In this document: positions 10,490 to 51,126 of the stretch, in pieces | Layout of the letters: each line of letters begins with the position of its first letter | How positions within the stretch are numbered: the first letter of the stretch is position 1 | DNA from: Patescibacteria group bacterium | Lineage (GTDB): Bacteria > Patescibacteriota > Microgenomatia > UBA10105 > UBA927 | Direction of reading: 5' to 3' | Length of the DNA stretch: 64,000 nt | NCBI GenBank assembly: GCA_038063875.1 | Contig: JBBTUH010000002.1 | Coordinates: forward strand, 78,451-142,450 | The notes under the pieces: generated by a model | The model's input: only the letters and a program-made list of their open reading frames with translations | Told to the model about the DNA's origin: nothing | Databases searched by the model: none | Translations under genes and position numbers: made by a program

Positions 10490-12082
10490 CTATGTACGTT
10501 TAAAAGTAGATTTATGCGCACTTCGATTATCATAAAGTGCTTTGCATATACCGAAAGCTAACAAAGAGAACAAACTGAGCAACGATATGCTATCTGCTAA
10601 AAGTCTAAGTGGAGTCTCTTCAAATCTCACGCGCAACGTATGCTCGCCGCTTGGCATATTCACATGGATAATACCGTTAGGTTGATAAGAAATAGGAGTT
10701 TCTTTCCCATCAACGTACGCTTTCCACCCTGCAAAATAAAGAATTTGTGCAGCTATAGTGCTCTCTTTTTTCGCTTGTACGTTCAAGGTATACGAGAGTG
10801 GCGCTTCTTTCTCTACCTGTATAGTCATATCTTCAGCGTTTGCTTGAAAACGTTTAGTAAATCGATCTTTTTTCCATCCGGTATAGATTGTCGTGAAAGA
10901 GTTCCCCAGTGAAGACGTACCGTCTGTAAATTCTCGCCGAGAAAGATAATGCGCGTCATCCCTTTTTTCATACGTCACCGGCTTCATATAGGAAAAACTT
11001 ACGGTAAACGCCAATAAAGAAAGCCCCACCATAATCCAACGCGACAGCACAGTGGTCAAAAGTGCTGAAAGATATCCCACAGCAATCATAGGAACCATCA
11101 ATAATCTCCATGGATATTGAATATTAGCCATTAAGGGAACGTATCGCCATAGTTGCAACGAGTACTCTGTCATACCAAATATAGCTATCACAACGACACA
11201 AAACACAGGTAAAATATTTTTCCGCAATTCTCTTTTTCGTACTGCGATAAAAAAACTGATACATACGATAAGAAGTGGCACGATGCCGATTTGATAGGAC
11301 ATCTCATCAGCGCTTATTCCTACGCCAGAGAATCCCGTTCCCCATGACGGCAATAGGAGTTGAAAAAGATCTGGAAAATGATCCATATATGAAACGCTAT
11401 TTAACCCCACCATAAAACGACTCTCAACGAGTGCTGGCAGCCAAAAATACGTTGCTAACCCAATTCCTGTAGCGATTGAGAAGATGTTGCCTCGTTTGCG
11501 ATACCACGTATACAAAAAAATAATTGGAATAAATATGAACGCTGTAATATTGTGACTTACTATAATACCGGCTATCCCTATTGCTACACCAAAGGAAATA
11601 CCGTATTCTAACGCTGCAAACGTTAACAATACAAAAGAAAGCGCCCACACCTCGCCTACTGACCCACGCACGTATATATCGACAAACCAATACGGCACGA
11701 GAGAACAAACAATTGTCCCGATCATAGCTGCTCTGTCACCAAATACTCTCTTGAGCCACAAAAAACACCAGAATACCGCAGTCAAGTATCCTGCGGCGAG
11801 GGTGAGTTTCACACTGTCCACAAAGCTCACACCAAAAACATGAAAAAAACTCCCTATATAATTAGGAAACGGATAATGAAAAAGAAAAAGAGGCAATCCA
11901 TATCCGCTATTTAAATCAGGAGCCCACCGTGGAAAAAGATACCCGTATGAGAGCATGGTATAAAACTGCCAGAAACGAATAATGTGATACTCACCATCGT
12001 GCGTTGGTATAAATCGTGCACCAAATAATGGAAGACTTGAGATTATTGCTATCGATAACGCAAATAAAAAATATTTTTTCAT
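10490..12082 (-). CDS. Large polytopic membrane protein, putative GT-C glycosyltransferase, resembling the PF10131 'PTPS-related' family
   Basis: The N-terminal motif is IPTHDGEYHIIRFWQFYTMLSYGYLFPRWAPDLNSGYGLPLFLFHYP, followed by many transmembrane segments and a C-terminal soluble domain. The start was set at the ATG at 12082 (MKKYFLF), which gives an ATGA overlap with the upstream gene. There are four paralogs in this window. Confidence 0.6.
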   Translation of the reverse strand: MKKYFLFALSIAIISSLPLFGARFIPTHDGEYHIIRFWQFYTMLSYGYLFPRWAPDLNSGYGLPLFLFHYPFPNYIGSFFHVFGVSFVDSVKLTLAAGYLTAVFWCFLWLKRVFGDRAAMIGTIVCSLVPYWFVDIYVRGSVGEVWALSFVLLTFAALEYGISFGVAIGIAGIIVSHNITAFIFIPIIFLYTWYRKRGNIFSIATGIGLATYFWLPALVESRFMVGLNSVSYMDHFPDLFQLLLPSWGTGFSGVGISADEMSYQIGIVPLLIVCISFFIAVRKRELRKNILPVFCVVVIAIFGMTEYSLQLWRYVPLMANIQYPWRLLMVPMIAVGYLSALLTTVLSRWIMVGLSLLAFTVSFSYMKPVTYEKRDDAHYLSRREFTDGTSSLGNSFTTIYTGWKKDRFTKRFQANAEDMTIQVEKEAPLSYTLNVQAKKESTIAAQILYFAGWKAYVDGKETPISYQPNGIIHVNMPSGEHTLRVRFEETPLRLLADSISLLSLFSLLAFGICKALYDNRSAHKSTFKRT

Positions 12083-13179
12083 CTTTTCAGGCTGAATGTA
12101 TACCACACCGTATACATCATGGGAGGAATCCATGTCACCAAAGTTCGTATCAGAGGACCTGTGCCTCCATATTCACGCGTGGCTATCCATGGCACGTATC
12201 GGAGCATCAGTCCAAAACTCAACATATACGCGGCTCCCTGAAGAAATGATCGTTTCCCCATTGGTAATAGTGATACAAACACGAGAAACCATATCGCATA
12301 CCATGGATACATTTCTTCTCGAAGCGGTGTGAGCAAAAAGACGCCAAACATACACATTCCTGCCAATAAAGCACGCTTTTCGTCTGATAAGTGACGGAAA
12401 AATACAAAAAGGGGCAATACAACGATAGTTGCACCCTTTACTAATACTGATGCAATCATAAAACCCCATCCCATAATCCTTACTGCTAACTGCGAATTAC
12501 GCCAAAGATATATTCCATAGAGAACAAGCGCCATCATAAACGTATCATTGTGCCCTGATACAAATGTCTCGATAATCACAAGTGGATTAAGAACGAAAAA
12601 CAAGACGTTTCTCACATTCTTTGTCATCCTATATATAAGAATTCCTACCATGACGTATGCGCTTATGACAAAAAGTTTGAATGTATATATTGAAACCAAA
12701 ACATTTCCAAACGAAAGCACATGAGGGATCCACGTCCCCAATATCCAAATCGGTCCATACAGCGCGAGCTTATTGGCAGCCCTTGTAAACTGCAGCATCG
12801 GTTCAAAAAGAAGCTCAGTAGGCATCACCACGTAGGGATTTTCTCGATAAAAATATGCGACTTTTGCGGTAAGGATATAGTTGAATATGTCATGAGACAA
12901 TGCAGGGTATGACAAGAAAAATATTAAACCGATGCAGAATAAAAACAATGCGTATTTTCTAAATGAGAATGCCGTTTTCTCAAACAATATTCGAGCGTAT
13001 AGAAAAAATAATAGAAAAATAAGGAATGTATATACCAACGCTGCTATATACAATTTTTGATAGACAATATGAGTAAGCCATGTGTTTTGCAGTATAGGAA
13101 AATTTGGGTCAACAAACCCAAATGAAAAAATTGAAAAAAGAATTCCCACTATACCATACCAAATAAGCAAAGCAATCAT
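12079..13179 (-). CDS. Polytopic membrane protein of about 366 aa, putative membrane glycosyltransferase (DUF2029/GT87-like?)
   Basis: It is hydrophobic throughout. The motif NPLVIIETFVSGHNDTFMMALVLYG is shared with paralogs at 47690..48772 and, more loosely, 20931..22220. Confidence 0.45.
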   Translation of the reverse strand: MIALLIWYGIVGILFSIFSFGFVDPNFPILQNTWLTHIVYQKLYIAALVYTFLIFLLFFLYARILFEKTAFSFRKYALFLFCIGLIFFLSYPALSHDIFNYILTAKVAYFYRENPYVVMPTELLFEPMLQFTRAANKLALYGPIWILGTWIPHVLSFGNVLVSIYTFKLFVISAYVMVGILIYRMTKNVRNVLFFVLNPLVIIETFVSGHNDTFMMALVLYGIYLWRNSQLAVRIMGWGFMIASVLVKGATIVVLPLFVFFRHLSDEKRALLAGMCMFGVFLLTPLREEMYPWYAIWFLVFVSLLPMGKRSFLQGAAYMLSFGLMLRYVPWIATREYGGTGPLIRTLVTWIPPMMYTVWYTFSLKR

Positions 13180-13688
13180 ATTTCTTGTCGAAGTTTTATT
13201 GACTCCATCAACCTATCATGTATGAATAATACTGTCGAAATTTCATTTTCCGGTGTCCACGTAAATACTGATGGCAATTCATTTTTCAGGGTTTCAAGCA
13301 GTTTCTCATGAACGCTCATCTGCTCTTTTATAGAGGAAACAATAAGTGACATATTTTTCTTTTCCGAAATACCCGCACCAATAAACGAAGGCAATTTAAT
13401 AACTTCATTATCAGAACGATTCAGTGCGTCGAACGCTAATAAATACTGTTTGTACTCAAATAATGTCTTTGCTTCAACCAGATATTTATCTGCCATATTC
13501 ATGATATATTTAGCTTTCGCAATACTGCCAAAACTCCAATATCGTTTCAGTTCGTCTACGACTCGTGAGACTTTATAGATCTTATTTCCGGGCATTACTG
13601 AGGGGTATGGGAGCACATATTCTGCATGTACCGACAGCGGAATAAAAAATATCACGCTGAAAAAGAAAATGAACACGGCGTACTTCAT
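13176..13688 (-). CDS. Small secreted protein of about 170 aa with an N-terminal signal peptide
   Basis: The ORF track extends this ORF to 13925, which overlaps the upstream GT2 gene. The internal ATG at 13688 gives MKYAVFIFFFSVIFFIPLSVHA-EY, with an AXA-like cleavage site, and an ATGA overlap with the GT2 gene's stop. Confidence 0.55.
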   Translation of the reverse strand: MKYAVFIFFFSVIFFIPLSVHAEYVLPYPSVMPGNKIYKVSRVVDELKRYWSFGSIAKAKYIMNMADKYLVEAKTLFEYKQYLLAFDALNRSDNEVIKLPSFIGAGISEKKNMSLIVSSIKEQMSVHEKLLETLKNELPSVFTWTPENEISTVLFIHDRLMESIKLRQEI

Positions 13689-14461
13689 GTCAGGTTGCCA
13701 AATATAAACTTTTTGTATGCCATAGGAAAATGGAGGCTTGAGAATAGTGCAAACTGCAATCCTTGCCATCCATCGACGAACCCCTTGTGCCTTACATAAA
13801 TCATGAAAAAAGTAACAATCGGCTTTATAAAACAATATGCAAAAAGCAATGACATGGTCGATCTTTTGTATTTCTTTCGCAATTCTATAGCAGTAAGATT
13901 CGTATACGTATCCGCTTTTGCCCAATATTCTTCGAGGGTGTTGTTGGTGTAATGAAGCAAAGGTTCCTTCAGCGTCCCAATTTCTCCATCAATCTTGATC
14001 TGTTCATGAACATATTTACATGGCAACCTTCCCTTTCCGTTTTGAAACAAACGCACGAGATAATCAGGATATTGCCCACCTTTGGATAACCATCGACCAA
14101 CGAAAAAATTTTTACGTGGCATTTGATACCCAGCATTTGTGTTCTTTTTCTTTATTACTGATCGGATTTCTTCCGAAAGATCATTACCCACCACTTCATC
14201 AGCATCCAACTGCAAAATCCAATCACTCTTACACATCGCAATAGCTCTGTTTTTATTAATATGAAACATCACTGGATTATCTCGTTTCGAAATGACTGCA
14301 CCAAACTTTTTTGCAATCTCGAGAGTTCCGTCAGAAGACCCACCATCTACAAGCACTATCTCATCCACCCATGACCCGATAGATGCTAAACATGCGCCAA
14401 GTTTTATAGCCTCATTATATGTCGCAATAGCGACGGATATAGTTATTTTCTTTTTTGCCAT
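13685..14461 (-). CDS. GT2-family glycosyltransferase
   Basis: Motifs seen are ISVAIATYNEAIKLGACL and VLVDGGSSDGT. Confidence 0.75.
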   Translation of the reverse strand: MAKKKITISVAIATYNEAIKLGACLASIGSWVDEIVLVDGGSSDGTLEIAKKFGAVISKRDNPVMFHINKNRAIAMCKSDWILQLDADEVVGNDLSEEIRSVIKKKNTNAGYQMPRKNFFVGRWLSKGGQYPDYLVRLFQNGKGRLPCKYVHEQIKIDGEIGTLKEPLLHYTNNTLEEYWAKADTYTNLTAIELRKKYKRSTMSLLFAYCFIKPIVTFFMIYVRHKGFVDGWQGLQFALFSSLHFPMAYKKFIFGNLT

Positions 14462-16065
14462 AGTCCCATTGTAACAAGAAACCCTAAAAATATAATAATA
14501 CCGACTATCGAAATCCAGTTTGCAAACGTTCGAAGCTTGGTGTCAGAAAAAATGATTTCGACATCATGCACTCCTTCAGAAACTTCAAATGTTAACAGTC
14601 CCCGAAATTGAGGATTTTGAAACTCAACAGGAACGCGTGTTTTATCGACGAATACTTCCCAATTGGGGAAATAAAGTGTATTTTCTACCAGCGTTACAGA
14701 TGATAACGAAGTGATGCGATATGAATGATGTGTACTTGTTTGAGTACCGATAGTGATAGACACATCCTTTCCGCTAATCACCTCAATCGGCGCCTTTGCT
14801 GATCTTTCCATAAAGCGAATAGACCAAATCGGTGCACTTTCCCCTGTGTCCGTCGTTCCGTTATACACACCCGTAAAATTACTATCAGGCATACTGGTAT
14901 ATTCCTTTGCATGCCACATAGAAACACTTGAAACAATCGCTATAACAGACAAGAGCACCACCACGAGTGTTCTTTGGTGTTTACCAAGCGTTGCCACAAC
15001 CAACGCTGCGATAATAGGCACAATAAATGTCGTGACGTGTAAAAATCTCCATGGAAATTGAAACTTTTGCAGCAGCGTCACCGTTTTCCACACGGGTTCT
15101 GCCACTGATGTCATCAACAATAAAAACGCTACAACAGAAACAAGTATGCCGATGAGAAGAATTTTTGATGTTCTACCCATAAAACGCACGAAATATAATG
15201 CTGCCACCAAAACTACAATATGTGCAAACCCTAAAAACTTGGATATTTCGCTTGCGGTGCCATACGCCCATGTTGGATTGAAAAAATCCAAGAAGTTTAC
15301 AAATCTCGATGTAAACTCCCCCCTAGTGACGATGTCACGCAAGGTGTATTTACCCTCAATCAATGCAGGCAACCAAAAAAATGCAGATAAGACAAACCCG
15401 AAAATTAAGCCTGACAAAGATCTAAAAACAAATTCCCGTTTTCGTTTCGTTTGAAAAACCAAAAGATACACGGTAAACATTCCTATGATAGGAAGCATCA
15501 TCAAGCTGACTGCATTATGAGACAAAAGCAGTCCCACCATACTCAAAGCAATAAGAATGACAGACGATCGCCATAAGCCTAAAAGGATAAGCGGCAGAAA
15601 AATAAACGCAATATGTTCGCCAATTGCACCTCGTACATACATATCGACAAATCTATATGGGGCAAAACCGTATAGCACTGCCGCAAGTATTCCTGCTTGA
15701 ATCCCAAAAACCGTTGAGGCAAACAGGTACATCGAAAAAATGCTTGCAATAAATCCAAATGCAAAAACAAGTTTCACGCTATCAACAAAAGAAAATCCAA
15801 TCGCATGAAATGCTGACCCTATATATGAAGGTAATGGATATAAAAACATCAAAATAGGATGCCCGTATCCCCAATTAAGATTACCAGCCCACCGTGGAAT
15901 GATAATCCCCTCTGAAAGCGATTGATAAAAATTAGCAATTCTTGCGACATGATCTTTACCATCATGTGAAATTGGGAGTCCAACGCGTAACAAATCAAGG
16001 AGGGGCAATAGAGAAACAATGATAAGTACGAACCAGATAATCCAGCCTAAATGTAATTTTTTCAT
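14443..16065 (-). CDS. Large polytopic membrane protein, PF10131-like putative GT-C glycosyltransferase (paralog)
   Basis: The N-terminal motif is PISHDGKDHVARIANFYQSLSEGIIIPRWAGNLNWGYGHPILMFLYPLPSYIGSAFHAIGFSFVDSVKL, which is paralogous to gene 10490..12082. Confidence 0.6.
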   Translation of the reverse strand: MKKLHLGWIIWFVLIIVSLLPLLDLLRVGLPISHDGKDHVARIANFYQSLSEGIIIPRWAGNLNWGYGHPILMFLYPLPSYIGSAFHAIGFSFVDSVKLVFAFGFIASIFSMYLFASTVFGIQAGILAAVLYGFAPYRFVDMYVRGAIGEHIAFIFLPLILLGLWRSSVILIALSMVGLLLSHNAVSLMMLPIIGMFTVYLLVFQTKRKREFVFRSLSGLIFGFVLSAFFWLPALIEGKYTLRDIVTRGEFTSRFVNFLDFFNPTWAYGTASEISKFLGFAHIVVLVAALYFVRFMGRTSKILLIGILVSVVAFLLLMTSVAEPVWKTVTLLQKFQFPWRFLHVTTFIVPIIAALVVATLGKHQRTLVVVLLSVIAIVSSVSMWHAKEYTSMPDSNFTGVYNGTTDTGESAPIWSIRFMERSAKAPIEVISGKDVSITIGTQTSTHHSYRITSLSSVTLVENTLYFPNWEVFVDKTRVPVEFQNPQFRGLLTFEVSEGVHDVEIIFSDTKLRTFANWISIVGIIIFLGFLVTMGLWQKRK

Positions 16066-17702
16066 AATGTGAATACAATAATTGCCTCTTTTCCATCAAG
16101 ATTTCTAAAGACATTTAATACCCGTTTATGTACTGGGGCATCTTTACTATCGGCAATATAAATTGTGTCCGATCGCAAGACTTCTTTAGACCAATCTATA
16201 ACGCGAAATCTCACATTTTCAATCATATGAGGTTTGTCGTATCCGCCCGACACACTGCCACCGAGTGCTTGATAACGCACAGGATCAAACGCTGTATAAA
16301 AAAGATAAAACATATACGATTGGTATAAATTTCCGCTATTGGCAAACTCTATTTTTTTGTAGGAAGCTTTCGGGTTGGTAACAAAAGACATCGTATCTTC
16401 CATGGCATATTGAAACGCATCAGATTGTGTGGTGGGAAAAATCACAAAATATCCTTTCCAAAACTCCAGCAAACTCCATAAGACAACAAGTATCAGGATC
16501 ATCCATCTTCCCCACGTACGTAGCTTTTTTGACACATACCATAGCTCGAGCCATCCAATACCACCAATCAGGGATAATGCAGGCAACAACGTATATGCTC
16601 GCATCGCATGAGGAGCTTGCGTGGTAATCGAAGCGGGTAATGGCGCGGACAATACCCACGCCAATAACAAAAGAATGATGCGTATATCGATATGACTCAG
16701 TACTAATATATACCCTACCCCCACCACAATACCGATAATCTCCCAAGGATACAAAAGACCCATGTATGGTACTTTATGTGCTTCACGTGCACTACCAGTG
16801 AATAACCACGATGGAGAAAAATGAGAAAAATAATTTTGTAGAAATACACGTGCCATAACCACTTTTCTGTGGTTTACCAGCTGTGGGAAGGTATTATTTT
16901 GGCTTTTTGCTTTTTGAAAATTATCAAACGCCTGCACAAATACTGGCGCGTCTACGGAAAACGCACTTGTTCCCTTAAACCTACTAAGTCCTGCCCCAGT
17001 CACCGTGACGTATACAGCTGGCAGAGCTATCAAGCTAAATAAGGCGATACTGAAAAATAAAATTTTCCACTCCTTCAACAACTGCTTCCCATACAAAAGT
17101 CCTGCGCTTAAAAGTAACACGGGCACAATAAGTTTTTGACTCTGATATCCATGAAGGGAAAGTCCAAACCACGCAGCCATAAAGACAAGTGCCCATGGCT
17201 TTTTTTCTAAAATAAAAACGAAAAGCATGTATATACCGGCAATTGTAAGCGTCAACCCCAAATTCGCCTCGTGCCCAAGTCGAGAAATATATATATGCCA
17301 TGGTGAAATAGTCAGTAACAATGCTGACACTTCACCCAAATAGTGTAGCCTCGTGTTAAACCGCGATAGAAGTTTGCCAATCCGATACAACATCCATACC
17401 GCAAGAAGCGACAAAATGATGGACGGAAATCGAACTGCCAGAGATGAGAGTCCCATAAATTTTACGAATGGGATGACCAAATAGACATACAGTGCCGGCC
17501 TCCAGTCGTCATACGCTCGAAGAAGTAAGGGTAATCTATATCCATATTCGTCTGTACCAGTATAGAGTATAGAATACGCGTTATATCCTATTGAAACTTC
17601 ATCAAGCGATGGTGCTGGCGGCACAATTGCTAATGCATAAAGTCGCAAAAATGCGGCAAGAAGAAAAATGATCGCGAATGCTAAAAAATCACGCTTAAAC
17701 AT
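16062..17702 (-). CDS. PMT/ArnT-type (GT39-like) GT-C membrane glycosyltransferase
   Basis: The N-terminal motif is LAAFLRLYALAIVPPAPSLDEVSIGYNAYSILYTGTDEYGYRLPL. This is a DE motif in the first extracytoplasmic loop, followed by many transmembrane segments and a C-terminal soluble domain. It is the first of three tandem paralogs. Confidence 0.65.
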   Translation of the reverse strand: MFKRDFLAFAIIFLLAAFLRLYALAIVPPAPSLDEVSIGYNAYSILYTGTDEYGYRLPLLLRAYDDWRPALYVYLVIPFVKFMGLSSLAVRFPSIILSLLAVWMLYRIGKLLSRFNTRLHYLGEVSALLLTISPWHIYISRLGHEANLGLTLTIAGIYMLFVFILEKKPWALVFMAAWFGLSLHGYQSQKLIVPVLLLSAGLLYGKQLLKEWKILFFSIALFSLIALPAVYVTVTGAGLSRFKGTSAFSVDAPVFVQAFDNFQKAKSQNNTFPQLVNHRKVVMARVFLQNYFSHFSPSWLFTGSAREAHKVPYMGLLYPWEIIGIVVGVGYILVLSHIDIRIILLLLAWVLSAPLPASITTQAPHAMRAYTLLPALSLIGGIGWLELWYVSKKLRTWGRWMILILVVLWSLLEFWKGYFVIFPTTQSDAFQYAMEDTMSFVTNPKASYKKIEFANSGNLYQSYMFYLFYTAFDPVRYQALGGSVSGGYDKPHMIENVRFRVIDWSKEVLRSDTIYIADSKDAPVHKRVLNVFRNLDGKEAIIVFTL

Positions 17703-17707
17703 ACTTG

Positions 17708-29303: not shown

Positions 29304-29306
29304 TAT

Positions 29307-40776: not shown

Positions 40777-40777
40777 A

Positions 40778-44593: not shown

Positions 44594-46122
44594 GATCGAC
44601 GACTAATCGTATATATCCATACAAGATACATGACACCAAATGCAAAAGAAATGATATCCGTAATTAACCGAAATCCAGTTTCACGAAATGATGCTTCTAG
44701 CTTACGGCTTCCCGCAGAAACATTCACGCGCATTACTCCATGAGTATTTGTATAGTCAATCGGCGTAAGCTTTCCATCTATAGTCACTCCCCATCCTGGA
44801 TAATAAATAGTATTTATTTGAACGATGCTGTCTGACCGTGCCTCAACAATGCCATCAATATACTGCGGTGTTTCTTTGCCCGAAAAATATGTTGCATCAC
44901 CTGAGTGTACTTCTACTTTTTTACTCGCGCGAGTGGTTTGGATAACTTGCACCCATCTGGGCATATATTCATTTTTCACAGTCGTCGTACCCTCATTTGT
45001 GCTGTAATACCCCTCAATGCGATCGCTATATCGAATCTTTGTTTGTTGAAAAAGTGTATACCCTCCTAATGCAATGAGCATAATGATAAAAATATATATT
45101 CTGCTCTTCTTTTGCACCAGAGACATAGCGGCTGATATGCCAACAGCTCCGATCATCGTGCTTACGGATAAAAATCTATAGGGAAACTGGATAAATGACG
45201 ATAAGGAAGGCACGCTGCTCCATAAAACAGCACTGATTGGGAGAGAAAGGATAGATGCCAGAAGTACAATGATCGCGCAAGCGCGTTCAAATGCTGTAAA
45301 TTTTGCACGTCGTATGAATAAAATATAGAGTGCGGCAAGTACCCCAACGCCTAAAAGCCACCAATTTTTGACCGTTATAAAATATGTAAACGTATCGGCT
45401 ACACTCACTCGATCAAAGATAACAAATCGTCTTTCAAAAAGAGCAGGAAGCCAAAAAAATGTCGCCATACCGACACCGATAATCATGCCCTTTATAAATA
45501 CCCATGGTTTAGGCTGCAATCCGACAAGAAGCCAAAGCGGAGCCACAAACAATAACGCCAGTGAATTATGACCCAAAATAAGAACAGCCGTGGCTATCGG
45601 AACGATCCAATACACATGTGCCATAATCCCATACAAGAGCATGCTCGCCGGCAAAAATGCAAAAATTTCTCCGACAGATCCGCGGGTAAATACATCAAAT
45701 GTTACGTACGGACTAAGCACAAAAGATGCCGCCCCGCCAAGAGATGAAAGCGTTTCATATTTTTTCCGCAGAGCCAAATACAAAAAACTACCAGAGCCGA
45801 TAATAGAAATTGCAAAAATTATTTTTATCACATCAACAAAAGAAAATCCCAAAAATCGAAAAAAAGAACCTACATAAAGAAATCCGGGATACAAAAAATT
45901 GGAAACGGGATACCCGTAATTATGGTATAAGCGACCCAAAAATCTCACAGGGAATTGACCATCTGCCAAACTTTGATAAAACGCAGACAATCGGATGACC
46001 ATCCAATCACCATCATCTGTGATAAAAAATCCATGCCTAAAAAGTGGCCACAAAAGTACTATAGAGACTGCGATCACTCCCGCAAATCCAATCAGGAAAC
46101 CATACGTTTTTCGCTTCTTCAT
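44590..46122 (-). CDS. Large polytopic membrane protein, PF10131-like putative GT-C glycosyltransferase (tandem paralog)
   Basis: The N-terminal motif is FFITDDGDWMVIRLSAFYQSLADGQFPVRFLGRLYHNYGYPVSNFLYP. Confidence 0.55.
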   Translation of the reverse strand: MKKRKTYGFLIGFAGVIAVSIVLLWPLFRHGFFITDDGDWMVIRLSAFYQSLADGQFPVRFLGRLYHNYGYPVSNFLYPGFLYVGSFFRFLGFSFVDVIKIIFAISIIGSGSFLYLALRKKYETLSSLGGAASFVLSPYVTFDVFTRGSVGEIFAFLPASMLLYGIMAHVYWIVPIATAVLILGHNSLALLFVAPLWLLVGLQPKPWVFIKGMIIGVGMATFFWLPALFERRFVIFDRVSVADTFTYFITVKNWWLLGVGVLAALYILFIRRAKFTAFERACAIIVLLASILSLPISAVLWSSVPSLSSFIQFPYRFLSVSTMIGAVGISAAMSLVQKKSRIYIFIIMLIALGGYTLFQQTKIRYSDRIEGYYSTNEGTTTVKNEYMPRWVQVIQTTRASKKVEVHSGDATYFSGKETPQYIDGIVEARSDSIVQINTIYYPGWGVTIDGKLTPIDYTNTHGVMRVNVSAGSRKLEASFRETGFRLITDIISFAFGVMYLVWIYTISRRS

Positions 46123-47681
46123 AATATATGTGATGGAGGGAGCTCTATCGTATACAATCGCATATACTTTCCTTCACGTTTGCCTTTTTCATACTGCCCC
46201 AAAAGCGTCACGTACCAATCTTTTGGAGGTGTTTGTTTCTCATTGAGCACTAAATATGTGGGTCCTTTTTGTATCGCTTCTATAACTTGTGTTGGCACAC
46301 TATCAGGAAGCGGCCAAATACCAACAATTGTTATATTAGGATTTGATACCAAATAAATTTCAAGTGCATACGGAAGCAGTCCAAAAGTGCCATCAGTAAA
46401 TACCGTTATATGATGGTTGTTTGCTTCAGTTTTTAAAAATGATACAACGTGGGGAATACCCCAACCAGATGGCCAATCTTCTAGATATTGCGCCCTATCT
46501 GAAAACGGCAACGGTGCGTTCCATGGATCTCTAATAACCACGTAGCTTACCATCGAGCTAGGAACTATCAGTACAAACACAAAGACCACCTTTACAATCG
46601 GTCGTCTCATCCGTTCCCAAATTTTTACAATTGTATCTGCGGCAACGATAAAAAGTGGTATAGTCATAAAAAGCGTGAACCGTGGATAGAGAACTTTTGC
46701 AAAAGTCGCAAGTCCGACAAAGGGAATTGCCCACCACATATACAAAACTAAGCGTTCTCGCCATTTTGTCGTTATAAAAAACAGTGGTGCAAATGAAGCT
46801 ATAAATATTGGCAACGTCAAATATGAACGCAACCAATCAAACATCCCACGCATGTTCCCTACCAAATATCGAAACGGCTGATCAAACCACTCTGAGAGAG
46901 TAAAGAGAAATACACTATCCTTTTGACCCACCATGTGGAAAAATGGTGACAGCCTAAGCACACTATAGACAGCTTGCGACAACACAAAAGACACCACAAC
47001 AAGTCCTACAAATCGTACGAGTCGAAAAAGTACCTTTTCCTTTTTAAAGTCAAACAATAGTGTGCTAAATGGCAACAAATAGAGGCTAAGAAATCCTGAG
47101 CTTTTGTTGAGCATCCCAGCGCCCAAAAGTAACCCCAATAACAATGCAGTATCAAGTCTGCCTTTACGTACCAAAATAATCGTAAGATACAGATTCCAAA
47201 TCGAAAACATCGACACCATAGAGTCATAGAGCGCCATACGGTCATACAGAAGCGTAAACGGCGACAAAAGATATAGAGCTGACGCAACAAACGCGACACG
47301 AACACTTGTAAATAAGATATACGTCACAGCCCATATTCCCAAAAGCGTCCCAAAACCAGCCACGACAGACGTAAGTCGACCTACAAATAACGGATCAGCA
47401 TCTACCAGCTTAAGAAGCATCATTATTACCCACGTAAACATGGGTTGTTTGCCATCAGTCAACGAAATAAATCGCCAATTCGCATCCTGACTTCCAATTT
47501 GTGACCATCGGATATAAATAGCTTCATCGGTAAATATGGGGAGCGCCGTCAAATTCGTGAGGCGAGTGACTACATAAAACCCCACCATAGCCAAAGCTAC
47601 CAGAACAATGCCAAAGAAGCGCTTTTTGTTACCCTGCATACTCTTAATTATATCGAATTGGGGACAATACAAGCAAACCAA
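46119..47681 (-). CDS. ArnT/PMT-type GT-C membrane glycosyltransferase
   Basis: The N-terminal motif is LTALPIFTDEAIYIRWSQIG, a DE motif. The protein is 520 aa and polytopic. Confidence 0.55.
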   Translation of the reverse strand: MVCLYCPQFDIIKSMQGNKKRFFGIVLVALAMVGFYVVTRLTNLTALPIFTDEAIYIRWSQIGSQDANWRFISLTDGKQPMFTWVIMMLLKLVDADPLFVGRLTSVVAGFGTLLGIWAVTYILFTSVRVAFVASALYLLSPFTLLYDRMALYDSMVSMFSIWNLYLTIILVRKGRLDTALLLGLLLGAGMLNKSSGFLSLYLLPFSTLLFDFKKEKVLFRLVRFVGLVVVSFVLSQAVYSVLRLSPFFHMVGQKDSVFLFTLSEWFDQPFRYLVGNMRGMFDWLRSYLTLPIFIASFAPLFFITTKWRERLVLYMWWAIPFVGLATFAKVLYPRFTLFMTIPLFIVAADTIVKIWERMRRPIVKVVFVFVLIVPSSMVSYVVIRDPWNAPLPFSDRAQYLEDWPSGWGIPHVVSFLKTEANNHHITVFTDGTFGLLPYALEIYLVSNPNITIVGIWPLPDSVPTQVIEAIQKGPTYLVLNEKQTPPKDWYVTLLGQYEKGKREGKYMRLYTIELPPSHIL

Positions 47682-47689
47682 AGGGAATA

Positions 47690-48772
47690 CTATTTTTTAA
47701 ACCTAACCTGTGAAGCGAAAAATGCCACGAGCGATCCTACTACCGCGATAAAGATAATACTTGTTTTAAGGTACTGTGATTGCGTAGTATAGCTTCCGGT
47801 GTACAGGTATGGAACATAAGAAAGAAGTAAGCCTACAGAGAGAATACTAAATGCGCTATAGACCCCTTTGCGATTCGGATCTAGTGCGACAAATGGGAGT
47901 ACCCAAACAAGATACCATGGGAGAAATTCTCGCTTTATGACAGCAACAGTTAGACCTACCATCATTGCCAAAAACATAAGCACCTTATCAGGCTTTATCG
48001 CATACAACGGTACAAGTGTTAGTGTCATGAGCTTTGCCGCGATGGACATAGAAAGCCAAAACCATGAAGCAATCATATCCTTGTGGGACAAATACCAAAA
48101 ACTCACCAGCATAAACGCTACAAGCACGATATCATTGTGAGAGCTTACCAATGTTTCTACAATAATAAGCGGATTGAGGGCAAACATCGCAAGTCCATAT
48201 GTCGCGTCAGCAGCCCGCTCTTTCTTTAGAATTTTTTCAATCATCAAACATGAAAGGAGATAAAAGAGTGCAATCAATGCTTTCATATTTATCATGATCA
48301 AAATAAAATACCCAAACCCCAATACATATGGGACCAACGACAAAAGTATCCATAATGGGGCGTAGGCACTCGATAAATGCGTCCATCGCATAAAATTTAA
48401 CCATGGATCAACTCCTGCAAACATAAGTGGCGTGACCATATATGGATTCTTATGGTACAAAAGCACTGTTTTTGCTGTAAACATATAGTTAAAGAAATCA
48501 TAGGAAAATGCTGCTGGGTATGAAATAACAAGCGTCACGACAAGAATAAATATCACCTTCCAAACGAACGATCGATCAAAAATTCCCTTCTTTACACGAG
48601 CCAAAACAGTGACATACAAAAGAAAAAATAACGTAAGAATCGCTATATAAAGAAATGAAGACAGCGGACGATTATAGTATCCTATATATTGAAACGATCT
48701 TTGCACTGTCTGTACGAGACTTGCCCGGGAAAGCGTCAAATTCAAATCGACCTGCGTATAAGAATACATCAA
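47690..48772 (-). CDS. Polytopic membrane protein of about 360 aa, putative membrane glycosyltransferase (paralog of 12079..13179)
   Basis: The motif NPLIIVETLVSSHNDIVLVAFMLVSFWY matches NPLVIIETFVSGHNDTFMMALVLYG in gene 12079..13179. Confidence 0.45.
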   Translation of the reverse strand: MMYSYTQVDLNLTLSRASLVQTVQRSFQYIGYYNRPLSSFLYIAILTLFFLLYVTVLARVKKGIFDRSFVWKVIFILVVTLVISYPAAFSYDFFNYMFTAKTVLLYHKNPYMVTPLMFAGVDPWLNFMRWTHLSSAYAPLWILLSLVPYVLGFGYFILIMINMKALIALFYLLSCLMIEKILKKERAADATYGLAMFALNPLIIVETLVSSHNDIVLVAFMLVSFWYLSHKDMIASWFWLSMSIAAKLMTLTLVPLYAIKPDKVLMFLAMMVGLTVAVIKREFLPWYLVWVLPFVALDPNRKGVYSAFSILSVGLLLSYVPYLYTGSYTTQSQYLKTSIIFIAVVGSLVAFFASQVRFKK

Positions 48773-48821
48773 TAACGATAAAGCAGCTATTGTATATCCA
48801 ATAATAACAATGCGAGATAAT

Positions 48822-49574
48822 TTATTTATATCTTCCTCTCAAAGCGTTTATTCTTATATGTACGATATCTATAAAACCTCGTATGCTATCTTTTATAGGA
48901 TTGACCCTACGGGTTTCTACATAATGCCACTCCACAGGAACTTCTTTAATAGAATATCCAAATTTCTTCGCCAAAAAGAGTACCTCTATATCAAATCCTG
49001 CCGTCACCATCGGACCATCTACCTCTGCATTTGTGTTATACACTGAGAGTTTTTTAAATATCTTTGTAGACACTTCTCGTCTAAATGCCTTAAATCCGCA
49101 CTGTGTATCCGTAATACCCCTAAGCCCTAAAACGATCGATCGGATCATCATAAATCCGCGAGCCATAATAACCCGAGACAAAGGTGCGCCCTGTCGATCA
49201 CGATTTCTCGACCCGATCACCACGTCATACCCTTTATCAAAATACAGTAATAACTTCTCAAGCTCCACGATAGGTGTTGCCTGATCTAGATCTGAAAACA
49301 ACACAATGTCGCCTTTTGCTTTCAGCATTCCAGCAATCACCGTACCCGCCTTTCCACGATGCGTATTATGAAGGATGGTAAATCCAACGTTTGCTCGAGA
49401 AAAAGCGTCAAGAAGTTTCGGTGACTGATCAGTTGATCCATCATCCACGATGATAACTTCCCATGAAAATTTCTGTCGCTCGAGATACCGTGTGACTTTA
49501 TCCAAAGACCCAAGGCGAATATTAGTCTCCTCATTAAAACACGGTATGATGACTGATAAATAGAGATTATTCAA
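48822..49574 (-). CDS. GT2-family glycosyltransferase, DPM1/GtrB-like putative polyprenyl-phosphate sugar synthase
   Basis: Motifs seen are LSVIIPCFNEETNI, IIVDDGSTDQS, FSDLDQATPIVE and TDTQCGFKAF. Confidence 0.7.
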   Translation of the reverse strand: MNNLYLSVIIPCFNEETNIRLGSLDKVTRYLERQKFSWEVIIVDDGSTDQSPKLLDAFSRANVGFTILHNTHRGKAGTVIAGMLKAKGDIVLFSDLDQATPIVELEKLLLYFDKGYDVVIGSRNRDRQGAPLSRVIMARGFMMIRSIVLGLRGITDTQCGFKAFRREVSTKIFKKLSVYNTNAEVDGPMVTAGFDIEVLFLAKKFGYSIKEVPVEWHYVETRRVNPIKDSIRGFIDIVHIRINALRGRYK

Positions 49575-51126
49575 TGATGGTGTCCTTCTTCCCAGTAAAA
49601 TGTACCAACTTCATTATACGTACAAATGAGGATGGCCACTCACCGACTATTTCTGCACGACCAAATCCTGCTATCTCCCACAACGGATGACCGAGAGGTT
49701 TACACTCTGGCTGATCACATATGATGATTAGTTGTTCTGTGACAGTCTTACGGTCTGGGTCTATGTCCGTTCGCTCTATAGTGACCGGTGGATTTCCCCA
49801 TATCTCAAAAAAATATCGATACACATGATCAGAATTAAAATTAGCAAGCAATGCAAAATTAAATGGTTTACCTTCAGCCTTGTCAAACGCGTCCTTGGCT
49901 ACCATCCGTGCTTGCGCTAATTGATTATTTGGTGGCGCCACAAATGGCCTTCCTTGCCAATTAAAAAACAGCAGAGCACTCAATAATACCCCAGCGACCA
50001 TAAAACCAATTTTTGAACTTGAAAGAACACGAAACAGCATGGCAACCAGTAAAAACGGTAATGGGAAAAAAATACCGAAGTAATAATCATATATTCCTTT
50101 TTTATATAACCCAAACAACATAAGTGGTATAAAAAACCACAACCCAAATAATACGATTGATCTATACCATTTTTTTGAAGCGCTTAAGAAGCCTAAAAGA
50201 TAACTTATAATAAGTGCCACTGACGACCACAAAGGAAACTTAATAACGCTCTCATAGAGTACGCGACTAGTTACAGACGCATTGACGAGTTGTTCAGGCG
50301 GGGGCAGTCGAAACACGAGCCTTCCAAACAATCGATATGAGACATCGGTAATGATGGCTATAAATTGATTTGAGGTAAAGCCAGTATCATTGCCTGCAAG
50401 GATAAATCGCGTAATAGAAATCGTGTTTGGAAATCCGTGTCGCAACTCAAACGCCAAAAACGGTGCATACCCTACAAGAAATCCTACAATCACAAACGCA
50501 TACAATTTCAAGTATTTTTTGCTTCTCCCATACAACAAAAACCATACCAAAACTACAGGGAACAAAAAGAAAAAAAGATAATGTAATTGTATGCCAATCC
50601 CTAAAGTAACGCCGATCAAAAAAAGTGATCGTTTAGAAACATCTATGGATACTTTCCATAGAAGGTATATAAGTGATAATGCAAAAAAGGGTACGACATT
50701 TGGATTCCATGAAGATCGTGAATACGCGATGATAAGCGGCGACATGCTGTATAACGCTGCAGCCACCAAACCCACTGACACATCCACCATGTCTTTTCCT
50801 GCCTTATATAACAAAATCACGGTTGCGATCCCAAAAAGTCCTACCATAACAGCCGCTCCAGCAGGATTTAAACCAGATACCCACACAAACGGCATCATGA
50901 AATAATAGTACATTGGTCCCAAAAAAAACCCTCCGACGGAAGCAGTTGGTCCCAAAAGCGTAAATTTATGATCGACAATCATGCGTTTTACGACCAACAT
51001 GTCCCTGCCCTCATCTCCCAAAAACGTCATGTATTCAGAAACTCTGTACAACCGAAGATACGCGGCAACCAAAACTAACCCAAAAAGGAGTATGTGGTGC
51101 CAATGAGCAAATATGAAGCGCTTCAT
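49567..51126 (-). CDS. ArnT/PMT_2-like GT-C membrane glycosyltransferase (paralog of 22207..23700)
   Basis: The N-terminal motif is YMTFLGDEGRDMLVVKRMIVDHKFTLLGPTASVGGFFLGPMYYYFMMPF. The protein is 519 aa and polytopic. Confidence 0.55.
   Translation of the reverse strand: MKRFIFAHWHHILLFGLVLVAAYLRLYRVSEYMTFLGDEGRDMLVVKRMIVDHKFTLLGPTASVGGFFLGPMYYYFMMPFVWVSGLNPAGAAVMVGLFGIATVILLYKAGKDMVDVSVGLVAAALYSMSPLIIAYSRSSWNPNVVPFFALSLIYLLWKVSIDVSKRSLFLIGVTLGIGIQLHYLFFFLFPVVLVWFLLYGRSKKYLKLYAFVIVGFLVGYAPFLAFELRHGFPNTISITRFILAGNDTGFTSNQFIAIITDVSYRLFGRLVFRLPPPEQLVNASVTSRVLYESVIKFPLWSSVALIISYLLGFLSASKKWYRSIVLFGLWFFIPLMLFGLYKKGIYDYYFGIFFPLPFLLVAMLFRVLSSSKIGFMVAGVLLSALLFFNWQGRPFVAPPNNQLAQARMVAKDAFDKAEGKPFNFALLANFNSDHVYRYFFEIWGNPPVTIERTDIDPDRKTVTEQLIIICDQPECKPLGHPLWEIAGFGRAEIVGEWPSSFVRIMKLVHFTGKKDTIIE

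What the first reader, a model, noticed from the sequence alone, without database searches (positions are those of the whole stretch)
10490..51126. An array of about 19 polytopic GT-C-type membrane glycosyltransferases from four or five families, in tandem paralog runs
Within about 40 kb I count large polytopic membrane proteins with glycosyltransferase-like loop motifs.
- Five PMT/GT39-like proteins have a D/E-E..GYNAYS first-loop motif (16062, 17708, 19330, 27666, 29307).
- Three are ArnT/PMT_2-like (22207, 46119, 49567).
- Five are PF10131-like with HDG..H..R..FP.RW..GYG.P (10490, 14443, 23699, 42929, 44590).
- Three are YfhO-family (25336, 32756, 35888).
- Three smaller proteins share ..HND.. 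(12079, 20931, 47690).
Several form head-to-tail tandem pairs or triplets with ATGA overlaps. Typical bacterial O-antigen, capsule and teichoic-acid loci carry zero to two GT-C-type proteins. Established knowledge of the PMT, ArnT and YfhO families is that they transfer sugars from polyprenyl-phosphate-monosaccharide donors to acceptors on the outer face of the membrane. The same locus encodes several candidate donor synthases. The inference is a highly diversified extracytoplasmic glycosylation machinery, possibly modifying surface proteins or envelope polymers at many distinct sites or with many distinct sugars. This scale and organisation may be undescribed.
Basis: partly seen in the sequence, partly recalled or inferred. 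Interest (0 to 1): 0.85.

Follow-up and report, generated by a model that had tools for sequence, protein, structure and literature searches.

The report
Conserved array of 19 membrane glycosyltransferases
A groundwater ultra-small (CPR, Microgenomates-group) bacterium packs 19 membrane-embedded GT-C sugar-transferases into 40 kb; the same gene array recurs in the same order across its relatives, so it is a real, lineage-wide and apparently undescribed machinery for building a complex cell-surface glycan, not a one-off oddity.

Summary
All 19 ORFs exist at the stated coordinates and are polytopic. They fill 31.1 of 40.6 kb and are mostly joined by 4-bp start/stop overlaps. Pfam places 13 of them above threshold in GT-C families (PMT/PMT_2, YfhO, PF10131). 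The other six are tied to GT-C families by paralogy, profile comparison or predicted fold. AlphaFold models of two poorly supported families (20931 and 14443; pLDDT 89 and 90) match only GT-C enzymes in the PDB, not transporters. The locus also encodes polyprenyl-phosphate-sugar synthases, including a full-length DPMS homologue, a Wzx flippase, about 12 further GT2/GT4 enzymes and sugar-nucleotide genes.

The uniqueness claim does not hold. In 42 full-length loci from Gottesman-, Woese-, Levy-, Roizman-, Curtiss- and Chisholmbacteria MAGs, the median is 9 GT-C genes per 21.6 kb. Those loci carry one-to-one orthologues (45-75% identity) in the same order, whereas in-window paralogues are only 24-35% identical. 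The array is therefore ancient and conserved in Microgenomates, not strain-specific.

I found no paper describing it. The best reading is an extracytoplasmic, multi-step glycan assembly line. The acceptor is unknown; an envelope polymer is more likely than protein.

The parts
10490..12133 (-). GT-C, family B (PF10131/YfhO-like)
   Evidence: Pfam YfhO C-terminal hit at 32 bits. BLASTP to 14443 gives E 1e-75. Orthologues at 42-78% identity in 15 loci.
12079..13179 (-). GT-C, family E (GT87/MptA_B-like, HND motif)
   Evidence: Precomputed Pfam PF26314, but no hit in local hmmscan. 32% identity to 47690. hhalign to family F gives probability 80%. Orthologues in 19 loci.
14443..16065 (-). GT-C, family B (PF10131)
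   Evidence: PF10131 at 49 bits. AF2 model has pLDDT 90. Top PDB matches are all GT-C: AftD, STT3, AglB, ArnT, Pmt4.
16062..17702 (-). GT-C, family A (PMT_2-like, DE motif)
   Evidence: PMT_2 at 35 bits. DE..IGYNAYS motif. Orthogroup of 18 sequences in 18 loci.
17708..19333 (-). GT-C, family A
   Evidence: PMT_2 at 52.7 bits and PMT at 26.4 bits. Orthologues in 77 loci.
19330..20934 (-). GT-C, family A; most conserved neighbour of 17708
   Evidence: PMT at 48.7 bits and PMT_2 at 45.2 bits. Orthogroup of 70 sequences in 70 loci, adjacent to the 17708 orthologue.
20931..22220 (-). GT-C, family F (GT87-like); public gene call is 422 aa
   Evidence: PMT_2 sub-threshold. Homologues carry precomputed PF09594 GT87. 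AF2 model has pLDDT 88.9. Its top 20 PDB matches are all GT-C-fold proteins: GPI-MT-I, ALG3, PimE, ArnT, plus the non-catalytic PIG-U.
22207..23700 (-). GT-C, family D1 (no Pfam hit); public gene call is 495 aa
   Evidence: BLASTP to 49567 gives E 9e-28. hhalign of its orthologue profile against family A gives probability 97.9% over 322 columns.
23699..25339 (+). GT-C, family B
   Evidence: PF10131 at 30 bits. 34% identity to 14443. Orthologues in 11 loci.
25336..27669 (+). GT-C, family C (YfhO)
   Evidence: YfhO at 85.6 bits. Orthologues at 36-70% identity.
27666..29303 (+). GT-C, family A
   Evidence: PMT_2 at 38 bits and PMT at 23.4 bits. DE motif.
29307..30959 (+). GT-C, family A (no Pfam hit)
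   Evidence: BLASTP to 17708 gives E 2e-72. DE..IAYNAYS motif.
32756..34861 (-). GT-C, family C (YfhO)
   Evidence: YfhO at 37.7 bits. BLASTP to 35888 gives E 3e-96.
35888..38209 (-). GT-C, family C (YfhO); has K where its paralogues have D after TM1
   Evidence: YfhO at 79.8 bits. Motif difference seen.
42929..44593 (-). GT-C, family B
   Evidence: PF10131 at 42 bits.
44590..46122 (-). GT-C, family B (no Pfam hit)
   Evidence: BLASTP to 10490 gives E 4e-49.
46119..47681 (-). GT-C, PMT_2-like (separate lineage)
   Evidence: PMT_2 at 45.6 bits. Orthologues at 38-44% identity in 8 loci.
47690..48772 (-). GT-C, family E (GT87-like, HND motif)
   Evidence: GT87 sub-threshold at 17.8 bits. 32% identity to 12079.
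49567..51126 (-). GT-C, PMT_2-like (family D)
   Evidence: PMT_2 at 37.5 bits.
51134..52246 (-). Polyprenyl-phosphate hexose synthase: GT2 domain fused to a GtrA-type 4-TM domain
   Evidence: Pfam GT2 plus GtrA_DPMS_TM. Full-length match to P. furiosus Dol-P-Man synthase 5mlz, E 5e-38.
48822..49574 (-). Candidate polyprenyl-P-sugar synthase (GT2)
   Evidence: Best PDB matches are ArnC, DPMS and GtrB. NCBIfam best matches are PgfS and ArnC.
42217..42972 (-). Candidate polyprenyl-P-sugar synthase (GT2)
   Evidence: NCBIfam best matches are PgfS, ArnC and AglJ, all below cut-off.
6106..6807 (-). Candidate polyprenyl-P-sugar synthase (GT2, AglJ/DPM-like), highly conserved next to the array
   Evidence: NCBIfam AglJ at 119 bits, below cut-off. 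68-73% identical copies in related loci.
40778..42220 (-). Wzx-type (MOP) flippase
   Evidence: Polysacc_synt_3 at 171 bits.
13176..14461 (-). GT2 (13685-14461) plus secreted DUF5667 protein (13176-13688), conserved inside the core block
   Evidence: Pfam. GT2 found in 56 related loci and DUF5667 in 25.
30956..32754 (-). SAM methyltransferase (30956-31825) plus GT2 (31822-32754)
   Evidence: Pfam. Syntenic with L031 and L012.
34867..35907 (-). GT4 glycosyltransferase between the two YfhO genes
   Evidence: Pfam. Same position in L031.
38206..40776 (-). Three GT2 glycosyltransferases
   Evidence: Pfam. Syntenic in L043 and L084.
1922..9292 (-). Flank of the same locus: GT2, GT4, GT2, an unassigned 10-TM protein (4859-6178), GT2 (6106-6807), GT4 (8234-9292). 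An AAA_14/DUF4143 gene at 6804-8165 interrupts it.
   Evidence: Pfam. Synteny in relatives holds except for the AAA gene.
52262..57151 (-). Sugar-nucleotide genes: SDR dehydratase/decarboxylase-like, UDP-glucose dehydrogenase, RmlD-, RmlB- and RmlA-like
   Evidence: Pfam; NCBIfam.

Best explanation
The window comes from a groundwater CPR bacterium of the Microgenomates group, near Gottesmanbacteria and Woesebacteria. It carries a chromosomal, operon-packed locus for assembling a complex glycan on the outer face of the membrane.

Proposed mechanism:
1. Cytoplasmic enzymes make nucleotide sugars. These are the RmlA/B/D-like proteins, UDP-glucose dehydrogenase and SDR enzymes.
2. GT2 enzymes of the DPMS/ArnC/GtrB type (51134, and probably 48822, 42217 and 6106) load single sugars onto polyprenyl phosphate. 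Other GT2/GT4 enzymes probably build a lipid-linked primer.
3. A Wzx-type flippase (40778) moves the lipid-linked sugars across the membrane. The GtrA-like domain of 51134 may contribute.
4. On the outside, 19 GT-C enzymes of six to seven ancient families each add a particular sugar in a particular linkage.

Each paralogue has its own one-to-one orthologue, in conserved order, across class-level relatives. The product is therefore most likely a structurally conserved, multi-linkage envelope glycan, such as a wall polysaccharide or lipoglycan, possibly also glycoprotein. It is unlikely to be a strain-variable antigen.

Shown: gene content, fold, family relationships, synteny and age of the paralogues.
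Inferred: donor type, topology of action, sequential assembly and acceptor.
For: GT-C identity:
- 13 of 19 proteins are above the Pfam gathering score in PMT/PMT_2, YfhO or PF10131.
- The remaining six are linked to these families by BLASTP, by hhalign (D1 vs A 97.9%, F vs E 80%) or by precomputed GT87/MptA_B hits on the protein or its orthologues.
- An acidic residue follows TM1 in 18 of 19 proteins.

Donors and flippase:
- 51134 matches Dol-P-Man synthase 5mlz over its full length, E 5e-38.
- 48822 best matches ArnC, DPMS and GtrB.
- 40778 is Wzx-type, Polysacc_synt_3 at 171 bits.

Operon packing: thirteen 4-bp overlaps.

Conservation:
- The 80 best of at least 585 related loci are nearly all titled Microgenomates-group or generic Patescibacteria MAGs, or carry a doubtful 'uncultured Gammaproteobacteria' title.
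- The median is 9 GT-C genes per 21.6-kb locus, range 5-12, and 65% of bases are in GT-C ORFs.
- Orthologues are 45-75% identical against 24-36% for paralogues, in the same order.
- Each window family-A paralogue falls in its own cluster with about one member per locus.
- Accessory GT2, GT4 and DUF5667 genes are syntenic too.

Known mechanism: the GT-A / flippase / GT-C scheme follows Rismondo et al. 2021, PMC8035078.
Against: - No biochemical data exist for any member.
- No acceptor gene is identified.
- No LCP-type ligase, polyprenyl-phosphate synthase or RmlC is in the window.
- Only four candidate donor synthases are present for 19 GT-C enzymes.
- No free-standing GtrA flippase is present.
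- Family A has no significant sequence relative among solved structures and was not modelled.
- 35888 has Lys where its paralogues have Asp after TM1, so some members may be non-catalytic.
- The comparison loci were chosen because they contain a family A homologue. Prevalence is therefore shown for relatives that have the family, not for all CPR.
Confidence: 0.75

Rival explanations
1. The array is mainly a protein O-glycosylation system. The PMT-like enzymes, and perhaps the others, glycosylate Ser/Thr-rich surface proteins (S-layer, pilins, LTD proteins) at many sites, as GT39 Pmt does in actinobacteria and fungi.
For: - Family A has the PMT-type DE motif in loop 1.
- Three members pass the Pfam PMT threshold.
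- A nearby LTD protein (60057-60839) has a Thr/Pro/Ser-rich linker, S+T 27%, typical of O-glycosylated bacterial proteins.
- The conserved adjacent pair 19330/17708 recalls the Pmt1-Pmt2 heterodimer.
Against: - The PMT_4TMC domain of true GT39 enzymes is not detected in any member.
- The family A profile finds no Pmt in the PDB by sequence.
- YfhO, PMT_2 and GT87/MptA-type bacterial enzymes with known function act on teichoic acids, wall polysaccharides and lipoglycans (PMC8035078; own knowledge for mycobacterial MptA/PimE).
- The many cytoplasmic GT2/GT4 enzymes and the Wzx flippase fit polymer synthesis better.
Confidence: 0.2
2. The array is a fast-evolving surface-variation locus, in the manner of O-antigen or capsule loci. 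Recent tandem duplication and exchange of GT-C genes diversify the cell surface against phages or for host specificity.
For: - Composition differs among more distant loci, for example 8 family A genes in L054 and 6 in L028.
- The family A pan-repertoire has 40 clusters at 38% identity.
- An extra D-type gene is present in relatives but absent here.
- Two foreign-looking genes are inserted in the window.
Against: - In-window paralogues are only 24-35% identical, so there are no recent duplicates.
- The core block of 12 GT-C genes is one-to-one orthologous and collinear across Gottesman-, Woese-, Levy- and Roizmanbacteria.
- GC content is uniform at about 0.40 across the locus.
- Independent assemblies carry identical proteins.
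Confidence: 0.1
3. Many of the proteins are not glycosyltransferases. They could be transporters, polymerases or non-catalytic scaffolds that merely share a polytopic architecture.
For: - Four proteins have no Pfam hit and two are sub-threshold.
- PDB sequence searches with four family profiles found nothing.
- PIG-U, a non-catalytic GT-C fold, is among the matches of 20931.
- 35888 lacks the loop-1 Asp.
Against: - Invariant acidic and basic residues are conserved in the loop after TM1 in every family alignment.
- All Pfam-negative members have clear GT-C paralogues.
Confidence: 0.04

Closest known systems
Multi-component (three-component) transmembrane glycosylation systems of Gram-positive bacteria (CsbB/GtcA/YfhO, GtlA/GtlB, GacI-L, GtsABC; Rismondo et al. 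2021, PMC8035078)
   Same: The parts list matches: a GT-A polyprenyl-P-sugar synthase, a GtrA- or Wzx-type flippase, and a polytopic GT-C enzyme of the YfhO or PMT_2 type acting outside the membrane.
   Different: Known systems have one GT-C per system and one to three systems per genome. Here there are 19 GT-C genes in one locus, only about four candidate donor synthases and no separate GtrA. Sequence identity to characterised members is low, and only Pfam-level matches exist.
Mycobacterial/corynebacterial lipomannan, lipoarabinomannan and arabinogalactan assembly (PimE, MptA/B/C, EmbA/B/C, AftA-D)
   Same: Many GT-C enzymes, roughly 15-20 per genome by my own recollection, each make one linkage outside the membrane from polyprenyl-P-monosaccharide donors. 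AftD and AftA are top structural matches of family B, and PimE is a match of family F. Families E and F fall in GT87/MptA_B-type Pfam families.
   Different: No sequence-level membership is seen: the profiles find no Emb, Aft or PimE in the PDB by sequence. The mycobacterial genes are spread over a 4.4-Mb genome. Here they are one collinear array that makes up about 3% of a genome of about 1 Mb. The contigs of relatives that appear complete are 0.995-1.2 Mb.
Eukaryotic ER-lumen ALG (ALG3/9/12/6/8/10) and GPI (PIG-M/V/B/Z) mannosyl- and glucosyltransferases
   Same: A series of paralogous GT-C enzymes acts in fixed order, each adding one sugar from Dol-P-Man or Dol-P-Glc to a growing lipid-linked glycan. 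GPI-MT-I, ALG3, ALG9, ALG12 and ALG6 are among the best structural matches. A DPMS homologue supplies the donor.
   Different: This is a bacterial system. No oligosaccharyltransferase-type protein (with STT3, AglB or PglB sequence features) was identified. The similarity is fold-level only, at 10-15% identity.
Protein O-mannosyltransferases (GT39: yeast Pmt1-Pmt2, actinobacterial Pmt)
   Same: The DE motif in the first extracytoplasmic loop is present, with weak Pfam PMT hits in family A. There is also a conserved adjacent gene pair.
   Different: No PMT_4TMC or MIR domain is detected, and no sequence similarity to solved Pmt structures is found. I do not file these proteins as GT39 members.
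ArnC/ArnT lipid A aminoarabinose modification
   Same: A GT2 enzyme of ArnC type sits next to a PMT_2-type GT-C (48822/49567), with UDP-glucose dehydrogenase and an SDR enzyme upstream.
   Different: CPR bacteria are thought to be monoderm, with no lipid A (PMC6744442). No ArnA- or ArnB-type formyltransferase or aminotransferase is in the window. NCBIfam scores are far below the ArnC cut-off.

Membership tests
GT-C glycosyltransferase superfamily | Polytopic membrane protein with 8-13 TM helices | tested here: met
   The KD scan gives 5-12 segments, which is crude and undercounts. The AF2 models show about 11-13 long helices in 20931 and 14443.
GT-C glycosyltransferase superfamily | GT-C fold | tested here: met
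GT-C glycosyltransferase superfamily | Conserved acidic residue (modified DxD) in the first extracytoplasmic loop | tested here: met
   Family A has DE, D has GD(Q/E)G or DE, B has (H/D)DG, C has P(A/T)D, E has (V/I)D(P/L)N plus (H/Y)D(I/F)FNY, and F has HDI. The exception is 35888, which has K. Whether the loop faces outward was not tested directly.
GT-C glycosyltransferase superfamily | Uses a polyprenyl-phosphate-linked sugar donor | not testable with these tools
   Only indirect evidence: co-located DPMS/ArnC/GtrB-type GT2 genes.
GT39 / PMT protein O-mannosyltransferase | Pfam PMT N-terminal domain with DE motif | tested here: met
   17708 scores 26.4, 19330 scores 48.7 and 27666 scores 23.4 bits against a cut-off of 22.7, with partial coverage. 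The DE motif is in all five family A proteins.
GT39 / PMT protein O-mannosyltransferase | C-terminal PMT_4TMC domain (and MIR domains in eukaryotes); sequence similarity to characterised Pmt | tested here: not met
   No such Pfam hit in any member. The family A profile finds no Pmt among PDB sequences. I do not file these proteins as GT39.
YfhO family (PF09586) | Pfam YfhO above the gathering score over most of the protein | tested here: met
   25336 scores 85.6 bits and 35888 scores 79.8 bits, each with two stretches. 32756 scores 37.7 bits on the C-terminal part and gives BLASTP E 1e-82 to 1e-96 to the other two.
YfhO family (PF09586) | Glycosylates teichoic acid | not testable with these tools
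   No teichoic acid synthesis genes were seen in the window. The acceptor is unknown.
PF10131 (PTPS_related membrane protein) | Pfam match above the gathering score | tested here: met
   14443 scores 49.3, 42929 scores 42.4 and 23699 scores 30.0 bits against a cut-off of 26.4. 10490 and 44590 are assigned only by paralogy. Orthologues carry precomputed PF10131 and/or PF09586.
GT87 / MptA_B-type mannosyltransferases | Pfam GT87 (PF09594) or MptA_B (PF26314) match | tested here: inconclusive
   47690 scores 17.8 bits for GT87, below the cut-off of 25. 12079 has a precomputed PF26314 hit but no hit in local hmmscan. Orthologues of 20931 carry precomputed PF09594, and NCBI names some of them GT87. 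The fold of 20931 matches PimE and GPI-MT-I.
Multi-component transmembrane glycosylation system | GT-A polyprenyl-P-sugar synthase, flippase and GT-C encoded together | tested here: met
   51134 is the synthase (DPMS homologue, E 5e-38). 40778 is a Wzx flippase. A GtrA-type TM domain is fused in 51134. There are 19 GT-C genes.

The most novel reading that the evidence does not exclude
Microgenomates are a whole class-level lineage of ultra-small bacteria with genomes of about 1 Mb. On this reading they build a lineage-defining, structurally conserved complex envelope glycan almost entirely outside the membrane. They do so with an assembly line of 12 to more than 20 GT-C enzymes that arose by ancient duplications. 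This would be an independent bacterial counterpart of the mycobacterial LAM/arabinogalactan pathway and of the eukaryotic ALG/GPI pathways. The glycan coat would be central to their surface-attached lifestyle.
Probability: 0.3. Interest if true: 0.75.

Novelty: new variant of a known kind. Interest (0 to 1): 0.55.

Why it matters
CPR bacteria have shed most biosynthetic pathways. This lineage nevertheless keeps about 31 kb, roughly 3% of a genome of about 1 Mb, for 19 GT-C enzymes, plus about 15 other glycosyltransferases. It has also kept their order across class-level divergence. That implies strong selection for an elaborate, defined surface glycan.

The composition of the CPR cell envelope and the molecules that mediate attachment to hosts are open questions. 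This locus offers concrete candidates: orthogroups, donor synthases and conserved pairs. These can be followed up by metaproteomics, lectin or cryo-ET work on 0.1-um groundwater fractions, and heterologous assays.

It would also be the densest GT-C gene cluster I know of, and a rich source of uncharacterised GT-C specificities. Family A alone has 6,124 representatives at 50% identity with E <= 1e-30.

Tried and rejected
- Sequence searches of profiles for families A, B, D1, E and F against all PDB chains found nothing significant. Fold-level evidence was therefore needed, and only two models were allowed; family A was not modelled.
- hhalign gave only moderate support for B vs A (66%) and F vs A (64%). 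I do not rely on these.
- The afdb50 fold library was unavailable.
- The 10-TM protein at 4859-6178 could not be assigned. It has no Pfam, NCBIfam or PDB match, and hhalign against the Wzx protein was negative.
- Transporter identity is rejected, because MFS and similar hits align at TM about 0.1.
- Assembly artefact is rejected. Identical proteins and order occur in independent ENA and Logan assemblies, and synteny holds in many MAGs.
- Recent tandem duplication is rejected, because paralogues are at most 35% identical.
- A mobile element or phage origin was considered. GC content is uniform, the flanks are housekeeping genes (FtsE/X, TsaE, Sua5), and there is no tRNA or Rfam hit.
- Nine literature searches found no description of GT-C arrays in CPR. 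Targeted reading of Meheust 2019, Kadnikov 2020 and three other papers found none either. The library lacks most subscription-journal papers, so absence is not proof.

Full report
**What is in the window**

The window has about 40% GC throughout and is almost gap-free coding sequence. They total 31.1 kb of the 40.6-kb span. A crude hydropathy scan gives 5-12 hydrophobic segments in each.

The genes are packed like operons. Thirteen same-strand junctions are 4-bp start/stop overlaps, and only one intergenic gap reaches 49 bp. A 7.3-kb segment (23699-30959) runs on the + strand. It starts 4 bp from a divergent start codon and ends in a 4-bp convergent stop overlap.

**Are they GT-C glycosyltransferases?**

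Pfam places 13 of the 19 above the gathering score:
- YfhO: 10490, 25336, 32756, 35888.
- PF10131: 14443, 23699, 42929.
- PMT_2 and/or PMT: 16062, 17708, 19330, 27666, 46119, 49567.

Two are sub-threshold (20931 PMT_2; 47690 GT87). Four have no hit even at E <= 1 (12079, 22207, 29307, 44590).

All-vs-all BLASTP ties the unassigned proteins to assigned ones:
- 29307 joins family A (E 1e-56 to 1e-72).
- 44590 joins family B (E 1e-29 to 1e-49).
- 22207 matches 49567 (E 9e-28).
- 12079 matches 47690 (E 9e-38).

A profile of 22207 orthologues aligns to family A with hhalign probability 97.9% over 322 columns. 12079 carries a precomputed MptA_B Pfam hit. Orthologues of 20931 mostly carry precomputed GT87 hits, and NCBI names some of them 'glycosyltransferase 87 family protein'.

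Profiles of families A, B, D1, E and F have no significant sequence relative among solved structures. I therefore modelled the two families I trusted least:
- 20931 (pLDDT 88.9, pTM 0.91). Its top 20 Foldseek matches are all GT-C-fold proteins: GPI mannosyltransferase I, ALG3, PimE, ALG9, ArnT, STT3, ALG6, Emb, plus the non-catalytic PIG-U.

Each family keeps an acidic residue just after the first TM helix. The one exception is 35888. The first refutation criterion, that these are non-glycosyltransferase transporters, is therefore not met.

**Corrections to the observation**

- HND is shared by 12079 and 47690 only. 20931 has GRSD at the aligned position and is a distinct GT87-like family.
- The three 'ArnT-like' proteins are not one family at BLAST level.
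- Family A carries the PMT DE motif and weak PMT hits. It lacks the PMT_4TMC domain and any sequence link to solved Pmt proteins. I call it PMT_2-like, not GT39.

**The rest of the locus**

- 51134 is a full-length homologue of Pyrococcus Dol-P-Man synthase, consisting of a GT2 domain plus a GtrA-type 4-TM domain (E 5e-38).
- 48822, 42217 and 6106 best resemble ArnC, GtrB, PgfS, AglJ and DPM-type polyprenyl-phosphate glycosyltransferases.
- 40778 is a Wzx-type flippase.
- There are about ten further GT2/GT4 genes, a SAM methyltransferase and a secreted DUF5667 protein.
- Upstream lie UDP-glucose dehydrogenase, SDR dehydratase-like enzymes and RmlA/B/D-like genes. No RmlC was found.

[quoted passage not shown] 2021 (PMC8035078), with the GT-C component multiplied about twenty-fold.

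**Origin and relatives**

The exact protein 17708 occurs on Hainich groundwater 0.1-um contigs and on several Logan assemblies, with the same neighbours.

I scanned one genome per GTDB species with the family A alignment. At least 585 loci were found. The best 80 are nearly all titled as Microgenomates-group or generic Patescibacteria MAGs: Gottesman-, Woese-, Levy-, Curtiss-, Roizman- and Chisholmbacteria. More than 30 carry an implausible 'uncultured Gammaproteobacteria' title. Contigs of relatives that appear complete are 0.995-1.2 Mb.

I then searched the ORFs of those loci with the 19 window proteins:
- The 42 full-length loci (at least 21 kb) hold a median of 9 GT-C genes, range 5-12.
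- A median of 65% of their bases lie in GT-C ORFs.
- Two loci from one Levyibacteriota contig together hold 21 GT-C genes within about 50 kb.

**Age and conservation**

In Gottesman-, Woese-, Levy- and Roizmanbacteria loci, each gene of the 10.5-31 kb block has its own orthologue at 45-75% identity. The second-best window paralogue scores only 28-37%.

The order is kept: 27666-25336-23699 | 22207-20931-19330-17708-16062-(one extra D-type gene that the window lacks)-14443-GT2-DUF5667-12079-10490, then GT4-GT2-TM protein-GT2.

Two further modules recur elsewhere:
- Methyltransferase-GT2-YfhO-GT4-YfhO-GT2 (31-39 kb) recurs in L031.
- GT2-GT2-Wzx-GT2-B...B...D-E (39-49 kb) recurs in L043 and L084.

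Average-linkage clustering of 274 family A sequences gives 40 clusters at 38% identity. Each window paralogue sits in its own cluster with about one member per locus: 84 sequences in 77 loci, 70 in 70, 18 in 18, 15 in 15 and 5 in 5.

The duplications are therefore ancient, and each copy has been kept separately. This argues for distinct, conserved specificities and against a recently diversifying antigen locus. Family A is large: 6,124 representatives at 50% identity with E <= 1e-30.

**Mechanism**

Shown: fold, families, gene neighbourhood, synteny and age of the paralogues.

Inferred: nucleotide sugars are converted by DPMS/ArnC-type GT2 enzymes into polyprenyl-P-monosaccharides. These are flipped by Wzx and/or the GtrA-type domain. 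The GT-C enzymes then use them outside the membrane, each forming one linkage on a growing glycan. The cytoplasmic GT2/GT4 enzymes probably prime that glycan.

The acceptor is not identified. I favour an envelope polymer (wall polysaccharide or lipoglycan) over protein for three reasons:
- Characterised bacterial YfhO, PMT_2 and GT87/MptA-type enzymes act on such polymers (own knowledge for mycobacteria).
- The locus has Wzx and many cytoplasmic glycosyltransferases.

Protein O-glycosylation is not excluded. One example target is the nearby LTD protein, which has a Thr/Pro-rich linker. Both modes may coexist.

**Novelty**

The kind of system is known, and all families belong to the GT-C superfamily. 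What is new is the scale, the clustering and the conservation in a lineage with genomes of about 1 Mb.

This window is therefore not exceptional within its lineage.

I found no paper that describes the arrays. Meheust et al. 2019 report 35 families enriched in Microgenomates, mostly hypothetical and many membrane-bound (PMC6744442). Kadnikov et al. 2020 remark on 29 glycosyl transferase genes in one Microgenomates genome (PMC7143001). The searched library lacks most subscription-journal papers, so prior description cannot be excluded.

**Verdict**

The biochemical interpretation is supported. The uniqueness claim is replaced by a more interesting statement about the lineage.

- Novelty class: new variant of a known kind.
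- Interest: 0.55.

Noticed in passing
window 6804-8165 and 9434-10255: An AAA_14+DUF4143 ATPase and a PaaX_M/PaaX_C-like protein sit inside the otherwise syntenic array. Neither has a homologue in any of the 80 related loci. They look like insertions into the locus.
   Followed up: partly
window 23694-23701 and 30956-30959: The divergent genes 22207 and 23699 have start codons 4 bp apart. The convergent genes 29307 and 30956 overlap by 4 bp at their stops, leaving no room for a promoter or terminator. The same inverted three- to four-gene segment is present in relatives.
   Followed up: partly
between window 16062 and 16065; e.g. L008:13223-14800: Relatives carry an additional PMT_2-like GT-C gene between the orthologues of 16062 and 14443. 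In the window these two genes overlap directly, so that gene has been lost here or gained elsewhere.
   Followed up: partly
window 35888-38209: This YfhO paralogue has Lys (PFPTKYL) where 25336 and 32756 have Asp (PFPADAL, PVPTDSL) just after TM1. It may be non-catalytic or use another residue.
   Followed up: no
window 60057-60839: A lamin-tail-domain protein has an N-terminal hydrophobic segment, a Thr/Pro/Ser-rich linker (S+T 27%) and a C-terminal TM anchor. It is a plausible O-glycosylation target, but this is speculative.
   Followed up: no
window 4859-6178: A protein with about 10 TM helices is conserved in 12 related loci next to the array. It has no Pfam, NCBIfam or PDB match, and hhalign against the Wzx protein was negative. 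It could be an unrecognised flippase or polymerase.
   Followed up: partly
L005, L007, L009, L015 and more than 25 other loci: Many GTDB-species MAG records are titled 'uncultured Gammaproteobacteria bacterium' (TPA co-assembly bins). They carry arrays that are syntenic with, and 40-75% identical to, Microgenomates loci. The organism label in those records is probably wrong.
   Followed up: no
window 12079-13179: The precomputed Pfam table lists PF26314 (MptA_B_family) for this protein. Local hmmscan finds nothing even at E <= 1. This may be a difference in Pfam version or filtering.
   Followed up: no
window 17708-20934 and orthologues: The adjacent, overlapping family A pair 19330/17708 is the most conserved element. 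The 19330 orthogroup is present in 70 of the loci, next to the 17708 orthologue in the loci whose gene order was inspected. This suggests a possible heterodimer like Pmt1-Pmt2, which I did not test.
   Followed up: no
window 54533-57151: RmlA-, RmlB- and RmlD-like genes are present, but no RmlC (3,5-epimerase) ORF was seen beside them. The RmlA-like protein is short at 250 aa. The 6-deoxyhexose made may not be L-rhamnose.
   Followed up: no
window 58672-63602: Housekeeping genes flank the locus: Sua5/YrdC, TsaE, an M23 peptidase with a coiled coil, FtsX and FtsE. There is no tRNA and no Rfam match anywhere in the window.
   Followed up: yes
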